Source: Heterodontus francisci
Taxonomy: Eukaryota
NCBI RefSeq assembly: GCF_036365525.1
Contig: NC_090411.1
Coordinates: 30,334,432-30,398,431, forward strand
DNA: 64,000 nucleotides
Reading direction: 5' to 3'
Shown here piece by piece: positions 1 through 56,902 of this stretch (position 1 is the stretch's first letter; each line of letters starts with the position of its first letter). A model generated the notes under the pieces. That model did not search any database. It was not told the origin of the DNA and saw only the letters and a program-made list of their open reading frames with translations. The position numbers were made by a program, and so were the translations under genes.

Positions 1-3000
1 CCTTCTTCTGGCAGGGCAGGGATCCTGAAGAACCAAGACAGCATGGAGTGGGCTTCGCCATCAGAAACTCCTTGCTCAGCATGATAGAGCCTCCCTCAAA
101 TGGCTCGGAACGCATACTGTCCATCCGACTGCTCACCACCTCTGGTCCAGTACACCTACTCAGCATCTATGCTCCAACACTCTGTTCCGCACCTGAAGCT
201 AAAGACCAGTTCTATGAACAACTCCATAACATCATTAGCAGCATCCCCAACACCGAACACCTATTCCTGCTGGGGGACTTTAATGCCAGGGTTGGGGCCG
301 ACCATGACTCATGGCCCTCCTGCCTTGGGCGCTATGGCGTTGGAAGGATGAATGAGAACGGGCAGAGACTGCTTGAGTTGTGTACCTATCATAACCTCTG
401 CATCACCAACTCGTTCTTTCACACTAAACCCTGTCACCAGGTTTCATGGAGGCACCCAAGATCACGTCGTTGGCACCAGCTAGACCTCATTGTCACAAGG
501 CGAGCCGCCTTAAACAGTGTTCAAATCACACGCAGCTTCCACAGTGCGGACTGCGACACCGACCACTCCCTGGTGTGCAGCAAGGTTAGACTCAGACCAA
601 AGAAGTTGCATCATTCCAAGCAGAAGGGCCACCCGCGCATCAACACGAGCAGAATTTCTCACCCACAGCTGTTACAAAAATTTCTAAATTCACTTGTAAC
701 AGCCCTTCAAAACACTCCCACAGGGGATGCTGAGACCAAGTGGGCCCACATCAGAGACGCCATCTATGAGTCAGCTTTGACCACCTACGGCAAAAGTGCG
801 AAGAGAAATGCAGACTGGTTTCAATCTCATAATGAAGAGCTGGAACCTGTCATAGCCGCTAAGCGCATTGCACTTTTGAACTACAAGAAAGCCCCCAGCG
901 ATTTAACATCCGCAGCACTTAAAGCAGCCAGAAGTACTGCACAAAGAACGGCTAGGCGTTGCGCAAACGACTACTGGCAACACCTATGCAGTCATATTCA
1001 GCTGGCCTCAGACACCGGAAACATCAGAGGAATGTATGATGGCATGAAGAGAGCTCTTGGGCCAACCATCAAGAAGATCACCCCCCTCAAATCTAAATCG
1101 GGGGACATAATCACTGACCAACGCAAACAGATGGACCGCTGGGTTGAGCACTACCTAGAACTGTACTCCAGGGAGAATGCTGTCACTGAGACTGCCCTCA
1201 ATGCAGCCCAGCCTCTACCAGTCATGGATGAGCTGGACATACAGCCAACCAAATCGGAACTCAGTGATGCCATTGATTCCCTAGCCAGCGGAAAAGCCCC
1301 TGGGAAGGACAGCATTACCCCTGAAATAATCAAGAGTGCCAAGCCTGCTATACTCTCAGCACTACATGAACTGCTATGCCTGTGCTGGGACGAGGGAGCA
1401 GTACCCCAGGACATGCGCGATGCCAACATCATCACCCTCTATAAAAACAAAGGTGACCGCGGTGACTGCAACAACTACCGTGGAATCTCCCTGCTCAGCA
1501 TAGTGGGGAAAGTCTTTGCTCGAGTCGCTCTGAACAGGCTCCAGAAGCTGGCCGAGCGCGTCTACCCTGAGGCACAGTGTGGCTTTCGTGCAGAGAGATC
1601 GACTATTGACATGCTGTTCTCCCTTCGTCAGATACAGGAGAAATGCCGTGAACAACAGATGCCCCTCTACATTGCTTTCATTGATCTCACCAAAGCCTTT
1701 GACCTCGTCAGCAGACGTGGTCTCTTCAGACTACTAGAAAAGATCGGATGTCCACCAAAGCTACTAAGTATCATCACCTCATTCCATGACAATATGAAAG
1801 GCACAATTCAACATGGTGGCTCCTCATCAGAGCCCTTTCCTATCCTGAGTGGTGTGAAACAGGGCTGTGTTCTCGCACCCACACTTTTTGGGATTTTCTT
1901 CTCCCTGCTGCTTTCACATGCGTTCAAATCCTCTGAAGAAGGAATTTTCCTCCACACAAGATCAGGGGGCAGGTTGTTCAACCTTGCCCGTCTAAGAGCG
2001 AAGTCCAAAGTACGGAAAGTCCTCATCAGAGAACTCCTCTTTGCTGACGATGCTGCTTTAACATCTCACACTGAAGAATGCCTGCAGAGTCTCATCGACA
2101 GGTTTGCGTCTGCCTGCAATGAATTTGGCCTAACCATCAGCCTCAAGAAAACGAACATCATGGGGCAGGATGTCAGAAATGCTCCATCCATCAATATTGG
2201 CGACCACGCTCTGGAAGTGGTTCAAGAGTTCACCTACCTAGGCTCAACTATCACCAGTAACCTGTCTCTAGATGCAGAAATCAACAAGCGCATGGGTAAG
2301 GCTTCCACTGCTATGTCCAGACTGGCCAAGAGAGTGTGGGAAAATGGCGCACTGACACGGAACACAAAAGTCCGAGTGTATCAGGCCTGTGTCCTCAGTA
2401 CCTTGCTCTACGGCAGCGAGGCCTGGACAACGTATGCCAGCCAAGAGCGACGTCTCAATTCATTCCATCTTCGCTGCCTTCGGAGAATACTTGGCATCAG
2501 GTGGCAGGACTATATCTCCAACACAGAAGTCCTTGAAGCGGCCAACACCCCCAGCTTATACACACTACTGAGTCAGCGGCGCTTGAGATGGCTTGGCCAT
2601 GTGAGCCGCATGGAAGATGGCAGGATCCCCAAAGACACATTGTACAGCGAGCTCGCCACTGGTATCAGACCCACCGGCCGTCCATGTCTCCGTTATAAAG
2701 ACGTCTGCAAACGCGACATGAAATCGTGTGACATTGATCACAAGTCGTGGGAGTCAGTTGCCAGCATTCGCCAGAGCTGGCGGGCAGCCATAAAGACAGG
2801 GCTAAATTGTGGCGAGTCGAAGAGACTTAGTAGTTGGCAGGAAAAAAGACAGAGGCGCAAGGGGAGAGCCTACTGTGCAACAGCCCCAACAAACAAATTT
2901 CTCTGCAGCACCTGTGGAAGAGCCTGTCACTCCAGAATTGGCCTTTATAGCCACTCCAGGCGCTGCTTCACAAACCACTGACCACCTCCAGGCGCGTATC

Positions 3001-25092: not shown

Positions 25093-25612
25093 ATCACTGT
25101 GGTAATGACCAGGTAAATTGTTTTAATAATGTTGGTAGAGGGATAAATATTGACCAGGACATCGGGGATGAATCCACTGCTCTTCTTCTAAGTAAAGTTA
25201 TGGGATCTTTTCAGTACACCCGAGAGGGCAGACAAGGCCTTGATTTAATATCTCAACCAGAAGATGGCACTCCCTCAGTACTGCACCGTGACGGCATGCA
25301 TTATGTGCTCAAGTCTCTGGAGTGGGACTTGAGCCCACAACTTTCTGACTCAGAGGCGAGTGTGCTACCCAGTGAAAGTTTTGTTAAAGCAGCAGATCTC
25401 TTTTTGAAATAGAATCTGTGGAACAGTTCTGGTGTAACGTCACAGATCTGAAACGTTAGCTTTGTTTCCCTCTCTCAACAGATGCTGCCTGACCTGCTGA
25501 ATATTTCCAGCACCTTCTGCTTTTATTTCAGATTTCCAGCATCTGCAGTATCGTGCTTTTGTAGATCTTTTTTTGATGCGTTTTCTGTCTCCGTAGCTGA
25601 GCTCATACTGAC

Positions 25613-25791
25613 CTACTGGCTTCCAGTTCTTCAATTCGACATCCATGAGCTGTGCCCAGCCAGCATGGTGATAGAAGTGTCGCACTACCAGCGGGATGTC
25701 GCAGTCTCGTGACTCACGGATTGGCTTCCCGTTGTCCAAGCTCTCCAGCACGCTCAACAGCCTCTGATGCTTCTGAACATTTCTGGCAACA
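25613..25791 (-). CDS. ALDH16A1: ALDH16A1 exon 4
   Basis: cacag|T GTT...GTA G|gtcagt. Encodes VARNVQKHQRLLSVLESLDNGKPIRESRDCDIPLVVRHFYHHAGWAQLMDVELKNWKPV. Confidence 0.92.
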
Positions 25792-48720: not shown

Positions 48721-49488
48721 ACAAATGCTAGTCGTGCCAGTAACACCAATATTCTGAGAATGATTTTTTTAAAGATGAAAAGCAGTTTAACTTTAGTACT
48801 AATGATGCAGGGAGAAGGAGCTGTATGTATCTTTGCATTTTGGGGGGAAAACAAGGGAGGGAAATTTAGAGAATTAACAACAAGTATATTAAATAGTGAG
48901 TGTGGGGAGAGGTTTGAAGCTAGCGGTGAACAAGTGGGCAAGTTATAGAGTCACAGACAGACCAGAAGGAGGCCATTTGGCCCATCGGTTCCATGCCGGC
49001 TCTTCACGGAACTTCAAATCAGTCCCAGCCCCTTCACCCCCCCCTTCCAGATCCCTGTAGCCCTGCAAGTTTATTTCCTTCAAGTGGCCATCTAATTTAG
49101 CTTTTGAAATCATTGATTGCCTGCAAGTATGATGGAAGCAGTCAGTGAGTTCCAGGAGATTGTGAAGCAGAATAATGTCAAGATTTCTAAAGGCAATGAT
49201 GGGATAGTCAGCGTGTTCAGATGGTGATAGGGTAGTGTGGCAAAGTATCATTGCTTGTTGCTAACCTGGGGCAAAATGACAGAAGAAACTGCGTTTGAAG
49301 AAGACTCAACTTATCAATCAGAGTCGGAAGTTAACCCAGCTTTTTGTAGAGCAAAAAATGTCTGAAAAGAACTAAATAGGCCTTCTATAATTTTACACAA
49401 GTTCATGAGTTGTTGAACTTGCAACACTCTTGAGCTGTGAAAACCTAGGATAAGAAATCTACCACAAAGTGACCTTTTAGCACTTTGA

Positions 49489-49659
49489 TTACTGGGAGAA
49501 TCTGCATTTCAGTAGTTTAAGGTAGCTGTCAATTTTGTGTGTGTCACGGCGGAAACAATGCAGGAGACTGTACAGCTGCAATGTTACCGAGGGTCCATCT
49601 TCAGTCAAAGGTTGTTCCCATTGCAGTCTCTGCTGAATGGCTGCCCTATGCTGTCCAAC
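49489..49659 (-). CDS. PRL: Prolactin exon 5 (ends at early TAA 49491-49489)
   Basis: tttcag|[56 protein letters not shown], followed in frame by SKC*. Confidence 0.92.
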
Positions 49660-50915: not shown

Positions 50916-51095
50916 CTGCTCGCTGATCTTATTCAATCCTTTCGCAAGTTGCTTCATTTGCTTGGGAATCTTCACTGACTTATTCAAGATGGAGCTCGTA
51001 ATCCTATAGGCGTCACTGAATTCAGAGATCATATATTGTAGAGGGTCTTGCCAGGAACTTAGAATATCAATTACAAGGTTCAGCAGGCGCTCACG
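50916..51095 (-). CDS. PRL: Prolactin exon 4
   Basis: tttcag|RERLLNLVIDILSSWQDPLQYMISEFSDAYRITSSILNKSVKIPKQMKQLAKGLNKISEQ|gtaca; 180 nt. Confidence 0.9.
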
Positions 51096-52707: not shown

Positions 52708-52815
52708 ACTTGTTCTTAATGCATCTTCCTTGTTCTGAGGTGTTGCTATGGAGGAGGTGTGGCAACTGTTAATAACGCTGAAGATAAGATGTTGGCCTTG
52801 CATAAAATGCTGGAT
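52708..52815 (-). CDS. PRL: Prolactin exon 3
   Basis: taacag|IQHFMQGQHLIFSVINSCHTSSIATPQNKEDALRTS|gtgagt; 108 nt. Confidence 0.92.
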
Positions 52816-53071: not shown

Positions 53072-53266
53072 AATAAGATGGAGCTGGTGATCCTATACGT
53101 GTCACTGAATTCAGAGATCGTGAACTGTAGAGGGTCTCGCCAGGACCCTAGATTAACAGTTACAAGGTTCAGCAGGTCCTCTTGCTCAAATTTGAAAACA
53201 TTGCAAATGAGTTTTTTAAAATTTTAAATGCTAACTTATCAATTTTTATTCCTCTTTGGGTCTGTC
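53072..53266 (-). pseudogene. Orphan partial duplicate of prolactin exon 4 plus its upstream intron, located in intron 2
   Basis: Encodes QEDLLNLVTVNLGSWRDPLQFTISEFSDTYRITSSIL. The adjacent intron matches 51100-51178. Confidence 0.85.
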
Positions 53267-56754: not shown

Positions 56755-56794
56755 CTTTAAGAGAAATGTGACTACAGATTAGAAGGATGACCAT
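56755..56794 (-). CDS. PRL: Prolactin exon 1 (start of signal peptide)
   Basis: ATG GTC...AAA G|gtatgg (MVILLICSHISLK). Phase 1 matches exon 2, and a TATA box lies ~77 nt upstream. Confidence 0.75.
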
Positions 56795-56870: not shown

Positions 56871-56902
56871 TTTATAGACCTGGTTATAATCATATTCATT
56901 AA
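56871..56902 (-). promoter_or_regulatory. Prolactin proximal promoter: TATAAA plus Pit-1 (POU1F1)-like site
   Basis: Minus strand reads ...ttaATGAATAtgattataaccaggtcTATAAAttgc. TATTCAT matches the Pit-1 core TATNCAT. Confidence 0.65.

What the first reader, a model, noticed from the sequence alone, without database searches (positions are those of the whole stretch)
49477..49510. Prolactin has an in-frame TAA three codons before its conserved terminal cysteine
Seen: the minus strand reads TGC AGA TTC TCC CAG TAA TCA AAG TGC TAA = C-R-F-S-Q-*-S-K-C-*. Known: prolactins end in a C-X7-C disulfide loop (human CRIIHNNNC), and the hidden Cys sits at exactly that spacing. As read, the hormone lacks the C-terminal disulfide and has an unpaired Cys, while all other exons, splice sites and the promoter are intact. 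Inference: a recent nonsense allele or incipient pseudogene, a lineage-specific truncated hormone (possibly a disulfide-linked dimer), stop read-through, or an assembly error.
Basis: partly seen in the sequence, partly recalled or inferred. Interest (0 to 1): 0.8.

Follow-up and report, generated by a model that had tools for sequence, protein, structure and literature searches.

The report
Shark prolactin missing its tail disulfide
This shark's prolactin gene has a real stop codon that removes the last cysteine of a loop kept in almost all vertebrate prolactins; records of a second shark lack the same cysteine, and the rest of the gene and the receptor exons found have open frames, so the shortened hormone likely still works, though this is untested.

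Summary
Confirmed. TAA at 49491-49489 ends prolactin 1 (PRL1) at residue 227; the Cys codon follows three codons later. It is not an assembly error: contigs from 4 of 4 runs of one sample carry it, with no other allele. No other individual was covered. Most other sharks have Gln here, so the change is probably CAA to TAA. It is not unique: two Chiloscyllium punctatum records end one residue later, also without the Cys, while its closest relatives keep it. Eight of ten shark species keep the Cys. The gene is otherwise whole and is the slowest-changing shark PRL1 tested. Seven prolactin-receptor exons are open and in phase. No PRL2 was found. Best reading (0.55): a tolerated truncation giving a five-cysteine hormone with all four helices. 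Main rival (0.3): a gene starting to die; it has a private proline in helix 3, and a similar human stop causes prolactin deficiency. Read-through and a disulfide-linked dimer are unlikely but untested. A new variant of a known hormone, of moderate interest.

The parts
56871..56876 (-). TATA box-like TATAAA, 77 bases upstream of the ATG
   Evidence: sequence; function inferred
56891..56899 (-). Pit-1-like motif ATGAATATG
   Evidence: sequence; the consensus is recalled, and no chance control was run
56755..56794 (-). PRL1 exon 1, coding part (start of the signal peptide)
   Evidence: same 13-codon length as the N-terminus of the full-length C. punctatum record P0021
53429..53613 (-). PRL1 exon 2: signal peptide end, Cys38 and Cys45, helix 1; open
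   Evidence: Database model P0001 omits 20 residues that the DNA holds in frame
53075..53266 (-). Decayed partial copy of intron 3 end plus the first 110 bases of exon 4, lying in intron 2; acceptor reads TTGAG instead of TTCAG
   Evidence: 84% identity over 193 bases, E 5e-59; codon comparison
52708..52815 (-). PRL1 exon 3 with Cys93
50916..51095 (-). PRL1 exon 4 (helices 2 and 3)
   Evidence: helix limits from the proxy model
50964..50966 (-). Pro155, private to this protein, inside predicted helix 3
   Evidence: 0 of 89 other records have Pro in this column; helix 145-172 in the proxy model
49489..49659 (-). PRL1 exon 5 coding part up to the premature stop: helix 4, Cys206, Cys223
49504..49506 (-). 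Cys223 codon; this Cys has no partner in the truncated product
   Evidence: Cys in 89 of 89 other records
49489..49491 (-). Premature TAA at codon 228; ancestral codon inferred to be Gln (CAA)
49477..49488 (-). Untranslated remnant of the old end: Ser-Lys-Cys-stop
   Evidence: whale and zebra shark records end in the same S-K-C

Best explanation
A single-base stop ends this shark's prolactin 1 gene four codons early and removes the last cysteine, and the gene likely still makes a secreted hormone that is predicted to keep all four helices and to signal, perhaps more weakly, through the prolactin receptor. Shown: the stop, the open frame before it, the missing Cys, a second shark with the same loss, slow protein change, and seven open receptor exons. 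Inferred: the mRNA escapes nonsense-mediated decay because the stop is in the last exon (established rule). The mature chain is about 194 residues with Cys38-Cys45 and Cys93-Cys206 paired and Cys223 free. The small tail loop mainly adds stability and some binding, so its loss is tolerated. Shark PRL1 appears to be under weak constraint on its outer disulfides, possibly because it acts near its source in the pituitary rather than through the blood.
For: (1) The stop is in the read-derived contigs of 4 of 4 runs with no second allele; if the animal were heterozygous and each run kept one allele at random this would happen 1 time in 16, so it is probably homozygous and the allele probably common. 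(2) Two C. punctatum records end CRFTQR, one of them a full 228-residue frame; C. plagiosum and Hemiscyllium keep the Cys, so the loss is independent. Only 7 of 91 single-base routes to a stop lie in codons 224-231, so random gene death would hit the tail about 8% of the time. (3) No other break in five exons. (4) Relative-rate counts against Pristiophorus: 9 v 25, 9 v 32, 3 v 30, 4 v 38 and 10 v 22 changes, the window protein slower in 5 of 5 comparisons (P 0.05 or less); 1 of 85 otherwise invariant shark columns is changed. (5) In the model of the truncated C. punctatum protein (pLDDT 79) helix 4 runs 193-227 and the best structural matches are prolactins. (6) Seven receptor exons on C4 are open and in phase; no PRL2 was found in three searches. 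(7) Odd Cys counts occur in 4 of 10 shark species, against 2 of 77 near-full-length non-shark records. (8) A review states that the matching loop of human growth hormone may only modestly affect activity (PMC10443362, passage); another paper cites shark PRLR as mainly pituitary-expressed (PMC6997183, passage).
Against: Human PRL p.Arg220Ter, which also leaves the first Cys of the loop unpaired, causes prolactin deficiency even when heterozygous (PMC6551007, meeting abstract; PMC11624213, passage); it cuts four residues further in. A paper on growth hormone variants argues that an unpaired Cys in this loop can cause aggregation (PMC12731935, passage), and removing the loop lowers stability and receptor affinity. 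The window protein has a private Pro155 in predicted helix 3, and 7 of its 15 private changes are radical against 20 of 88 in eight other sharks (Fisher P 0.06). A slow rate over a long branch cannot exclude recent loss of function. Since the exon-4 duplication, exon 4 took 3-4 amino-acid changes against 5.6 expected if neutral (P 0.19-0.34), which shows no constraint. Only one individual was seen. There are no expression or protein data. The C. punctatum evidence is protein records only, and I did not establish that they are two animals. The receptor's last exon looks divergent from my recollection of other PRLRs and its signal-peptide exon was not located.
Confidence: 0.55

Rival explanations
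1. The stop is a loss-of-function change and PRL1 is an incipient pseudogene: the free Cys223 blocks folding or secretion, and sharks can do without PRL1, so the gene is starting to decay in two lineages.
For: Human p.Arg220Ter phenotype. Cys231 is kept in 86 of 89 other records. Pro155 in helix 3 and the higher share of radical private changes. No constraint shown after the exon-4 duplication. The changed Cys patterns across sharks can also be read as general relaxation.
Against: Both lesions fall in the last four codons (about 8% by chance for the independent case). No second break. Slowest rate among shark PRL1s. C. punctatum has 0 changes at 83 invariant columns. Receptor frame open. No PRL2 found as a stand-in.
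Confidence: 0.3
2. The free Cys223 is put to use: the hormone forms a disulfide-linked dimer or a rearranged bond, with changed storage, half-life or agonist/antagonist behaviour.
For: Two lineages both keep Cys223 and lose only its partner. The chimaera PRL1 record has a different six-Cys pattern, so the pattern can be rewired in cartilaginous fish.
Against: A stop can only remove the later Cys, so keeping Cys223 needs no selection. No structural or biochemical support was obtained. Unpaired Cys in this family is described as harmful.
Confidence: 0.06
3. The stop is a rare allele in this one animal or population; the species mostly carries Gln.
For: Only one sample covers the site; four runs from other samples gave 0 reads. 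Assembled contigs can drop an allele.
Against: 4 of 4 runs show only TAA; a rare allele is seldom homozygous.
Confidence: 0.06
4. The stop is read through, restoring the loop in part of the product.
For: The Ser-Lys-Cys-stop tail is intact and matches whale and zebra shark.
Against: The context is TAA-T; known vertebrate read-through signals are TGA-CTAG (recalled). Nine intact bases are expected by slow drift alone. Other sharks have a sense codon here rather than a conserved stop.
Confidence: 0.02
5. Assembly or sequencing error.
For: All supporting runs come from one sample, which may be the assembly's source.
Against: Four separately assembled runs with different depths (4.2, 2.8, 9.6, 6.7) each give the same letters over the whole 511 bases.
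Confidence: 0.01

Closest known systems
Shark and chimaera prolactin 1 (P0002 Pristiophorus, P0003 Hemiscyllium, P0004 Mustelus, P0022 Stegostoma; Callorhinchus BAT33109.1)
   Same: 68-76% identity to shark records over the mature chain; one supported clade 99/99; same central and N-terminal Cys
   Different: These end in C-X7-C; the window product ends at Gln227 with five Cys
Chiloscyllium punctatum PRL1 (GCC34186.1, XP_072444409.1)
   Same: Same loss of the terminal Cys, Cys223 unpaired, rest of the frame whole in GCC34186.1
   Different: Ends one residue later (CRFTQR); arose separately, since sister taxa keep the Cys; DNA change not seen
Human PRL p.Arg220Ter (familial alactogenesis)
   Same: Stop in the last exon inside the tail loop, first Cys left unpaired
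   Different: Cuts directly after the Cys, so four fewer residues of the helix-4 end; a rare heterozygous disease allele, whereas the shark appears homozygous
Human growth hormone Cys182-Cys189 loop variants
   Same: Homologous small loop; loss reported to lower stability and affinity with modest effect on activity
   Different: Different hormone and receptor; engineered or clinical variants. This genome's own GH exon 5 keeps both Cys
Teleost PRL1 and elephant shark PRL2, which have two disulfides
   Same: Precedent for losing a whole outer disulfide (PMC2702173, passages)
   Different: In teleost PRL1 it is the N-terminal bond that is lost; here the C-terminal bond goes and one Cys is left free

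Membership tests
Prolactin 1 orthologue (GH/PRL family, PF00103) | Hormone_1 domain match | tested here: met
   4 of 4 exons scanned are over the curated cut-off
Prolactin 1 orthologue (GH/PRL family, PF00103) | Five coding exons with a signal peptide and an open frame | tested here: met
   the signal peptide is inferred from alignment, not predicted by a tool
Prolactin 1 orthologue (GH/PRL family, PF00103) | Groups with shark prolactins and outside the PRL2 clade | tested here: met
   shark clade 99/99, PRL2 clade 100/100 and separate; deeper nodes, including the place of the named C. milii PRL1, are unresolved
Prolactin 1 orthologue (GH/PRL family, PF00103) | Four-helix bundle | tested here: inconclusive
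   met in the proxy model of truncated C. punctatum PRL1; the model of P0001 was poor, pLDDT 54; the window's full protein was not folded
Prolactin 1 orthologue (GH/PRL family, PF00103) | Central Cys pair (93, 206) | tested here: met
Prolactin 1 orthologue (GH/PRL family, PF00103) | Pituitary expression and activation of PRLR | not testable with these tools
   no RNA holder listed
Canonical three-disulfide prolactin | N-terminal Cys pair | tested here: met
   Cys38, Cys45
Canonical three-disulfide prolactin | C-terminal Cys pair | tested here: not met
   Cys231 lies after the stop; so it is an orthologue by descent but not a canonical three-disulfide prolactin
Unitary pseudogene | Lesion that removes function | tested here: inconclusive
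   the stop removes 4 residues after predicted helix 4; the effect was not assayed
Unitary pseudogene | Further frame or splice breaks | tested here: not met
Unitary pseudogene | Neutral rate of protein change | tested here: inconclusive
   slowest rate overall, but radical share P 0.06 and relic test P 0.19-0.34; no codon-level test across species was possible
Unitary pseudogene | Loss of expression | not testable with these tools
Programmed stop read-through | Leaky TGA-CTAG-type context (recalled) | tested here: not met
   TAA-TCA
Programmed stop read-through | Stop conserved in relatives with a conserved extension | tested here: not met
   all nine other shark species have a residue at this position

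The most novel reading that the evidence does not exclude
Sharks have twice evolved a working prolactin without the C-terminal disulfide that is essential in humans, because shark prolactin acts as a short-range signal inside the pituitary and no longer needs the bonds that stabilise a circulating hormone; the free cysteine may even link it into a dimer.
Probability: 0.25. Interest if true: 0.7.

Novelty: new variant of a known kind. Interest (0 to 1): 0.45.

Why it matters
What prolactin does in sharks is not settled. Two independent natural deletions of a nearly invariant disulfide make that question testable. If the shortened hormones are secreted and active, the loop is dispensable in sharks, which contrasts with the human disease stop and points to a different mode of action. 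If they are dead, two sharks live without PRL1 (this one with no PRL2 found either) while this genome keeps the receptor, which raises the question of what activates it. Either way this is a variant of a known hormone, not a new system.

Tried and rejected
Other individuals: raw reads of four runs from other samples (one capture, three RAD) gave 0 reads on the exon, so no test. No RNA holder listed; this says nothing on expression. Folding P0001 failed (pLDDT 54) because that database model lacks part of helix 1. No complex prediction was run: the receptor domain is split over exons and a textbook pair would pass by likeness. Dating from the intact tail was rejected as too short. The relic-exon test was inconclusive. 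Cross-species dN/dS was not possible because only proteins of other sharks were reachable. No ray, skate or lamniform PRL1 turned up; I draw nothing from that. PRL2: the Pfam, protein and pattern searches found none; the pattern gave 2 one-mismatch hits against 1 in the reversed control, and neither reads as the motif; absence is not shown. Earlier findings: two look-ups gave nothing and one gave eight unrelated notes. Papers not held: Hara et al. 2018 and Moriwaki and Welt 2021.

Full report
Observation. The gene has five coding exons, 56794-56755, 53613-53429, 52815-52708, 51095-50916 and 49659-49477, all with GT and AG ends, and one open frame of 227 residues up to TAA at 49491-49489. TCA AAG TGC TAA follows. 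Cys lie at 7 (signal peptide), 38, 45, 93, 206 and 223; Cys231 is behind the stop. Exons 2-5 each match Pfam Hormone_1 over its cut-off. The exon-5 peptide has one match in the 6.0-Gb genome and is identical to a record labelled prolactin-like, Heterodontus francisci, which also ends at FSQ. That record omits 20 residues of exon 2 that the DNA holds in frame.

Is the stop real? Of 12 runs listed, 4 hold the stretch, all from one sample that may be the assembly's source. In each of the 4, one contig of 785-788 bases covers all 511 bases with 0 differences; depths differ (4.2, 2.8, 9.6, 6.7) and no other allele was laid. An assembly error is therefore very unlikely. Contigs can drop an allele, but four random choices would agree on TAA 1 time in 16, so homozygosity is favoured (inference). 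Four raw-read runs from other samples gave 0 reads here, so fixation in the species is untested.

Relatives. Records for nine other shark species were found. Eight end in C-X7-C, and seven of those have Gln at position 228 (Hemiscyllium has Lys), so CAA to TAA is the simplest change. The named chimaera PRL1 also keeps the Cys. Chiloscyllium punctatum does not: two records, one a full 228-residue frame, end CRFTQR, while C. plagiosum and Hemiscyllium keep the Cys and group with it. This is a second, independent loss. I saw only proteins for it and did not establish that the two records come from two animals. Of 90 fetched records 85 end in C-X7-C; the exceptions are the three shark records, one frog record with C-X6-C and one alpaca record whose end looks frameshifted. 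Among 55 unnamed distant representatives whose ends I printed (of 150 listed), six lack one or both Cys of the loop; they look like mammalian placental paralogues, so loss of the loop has precedent in duplicated family members (inference).

Selection. With Pristiophorus as outgroup (placement recalled from taxonomy), the window protein has fewer unique changes than each of five sharks: 9 v 25, 9 v 32, 3 v 30, 4 v 38, 10 v 22. It differs at 1 of 85 columns invariant in the other sharks. Its end branch is 0.086 in a shark clade supported 99/99, apart from PRL2. Only 7 of 91 single-base routes to a stop fall in codons 224-231. The window's case was chosen for being there, so only C. punctatum is an independent test, at about 0.08 under random gene death, using the window's codons as a stand-in. 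Against this, 7 of 15 private changes are radical versus 20 of 88 in eight other sharks (P 0.06), and Pro155 is found in 0 of 89 other records. A decayed copy of exon 4 in intron 2 gives an internal clock: 11 of 82 intron bases differ, and by outgroup 3-4 amino-acid changes fall on the real exon against 5.6 expected if neutral (P 0.19-0.34; assignment by eye). That is inconclusive. Odd Cys counts occur in this species, C. punctatum, Pristiophorus (Cys38 to Phe) and S. torazame (extra Cys216), against 2 of 77 non-shark records; I set aside the whale shark record, whose N-terminus is mis-modelled. These are mostly predicted models.

Structure. A model of the truncated C. punctatum protein, which has the same numbering, has pLDDT 79, helix 3 at 145-172 and helix 4 at 193-227; its best matches are solved prolactins. 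The stop therefore falls just after the predicted end of helix 4, and Pro155 falls inside helix 3. The window's own full protein was not folded.

Rest of the axis. A prolactin receptor gene lies on C4, minus strand: four extracellular exons with the WSDWS motif, a transmembrane exon, a Box1 exon and a 266-codon last exon, all open and in phase over about 573 kb. The two exons tested match solved PRLR best. The signal-peptide exon was not located. GH exon 5 keeps both loop Cys and the GHR cytoplasmic exon is open. PRL2 was not found in three searches, which are of limited sensitivity.

Literature seen. PMC6551007 (whole text, a meeting abstract): heterozygous p.Arg220Ter with low prolactin and reduced mRNA. 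PMC11624213 (passages): the same variant caused failure of production and secretion. PMC10443362 (passages): the hGH small loop may only modestly affect activity, but its removal lowers stability and affinity. PMC12731935 (passages): an unpaired Cys may cause aggregation; this is the authors' argument. PMC10889014 (passages): three disulfides of human PRL. PMC2702173 (passages): disulfide counts in PRL1 and PRL2. PMC6997183 (passages): shark PRLR mainly pituitary, citing Hara 2018. PMC8851675 (passages): origin of PRL1 and PRL2. Six searches listed no paper on a truncated shark prolactin, judged from listings. The library lacks most subscription journals, and Hara 2018 with its supplements, which may show the C. 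punctatum sequence, was not held; nor was the full Moriwaki and Welt paper.

Mechanism. Most likely (0.55): the gene is expressed, the mRNA escapes decay because the stop is in the last exon, and a five-Cys hormone of about 194 residues with four helices is secreted and signals, perhaps more weakly; shark PRL1 tolerates loss of its outer disulfides, possibly because it acts locally. The stop, the second loss, the slow rate and the open receptor exons are shown; expression, secretion and activity are inferred. Rivals: early pseudogene 0.3, functional dimer 0.06, rare allele 0.06, read-through 0.02, error 0.01.

Verdict. A real feature and a new variant of a known hormone: a PRL1 orthologue by descent that fails the three-disulfide definition. 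The repeat loss in a second shark is what lifts it above a single odd allele. Interest 0.45.

Noticed in passing
window 53075-53266, minus: Decayed partial duplicate of exon 4 and its upstream intron inside intron 2 (84% identity, acceptor changed).
   Followed up: yes
G000:C4:5438973-6012346, minus (L017-L093): The prolactin receptor spans about 573 kb for seven exons, with a 281-kb intron and a 247-kb intron largely filled by a satellite array; the frame stays open.
   Followed up: partly
L014, G000:C10:80087304-80087417, minus: A second PRLR-like first-domain exon (66% identity to the C4 exon); no further exon within the 100 kb fetched. Possibly a CRFA4-like receptor, which PMC6997183 says has not been found in cartilaginous fish, or an orphan exon.
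   Followed up: partly
G000, whole genome: No PRL2 found by family, protein or pattern search.
   Followed up: partly
P0234 (Callorhinchus milii PRL1), P0002, P0008: Cys patterns differ across cartilaginous-fish PRL1: the chimaera lacks the N-terminal pair but has two new Cys; Pristiophorus lost Cys38; S. torazame gained Cys216.
   Followed up: partly
window about 25610-25790, minus: An aldehyde dehydrogenase exon whose best structural match is the 767-residue chain 6mvr (ALDH16 by my recollection), about 24 kb downstream of PRL1 on the same strand; usable as a synteny marker.
   Followed up: partly
P0001, P0007, P0009, P0022: Four database models of shark PRL1 drop part or all of helix 1; for P0001 the DNA shows this to be a modelling artefact.
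   Followed up: partly
window 3-2978, plus: A 992-codon open frame of an endonuclease/reverse-transcriptase-type retrotransposon, with a near-identical copy in a PRLR intron at C4:5969018-5972291, suggesting a young element family.
   Followed up: no
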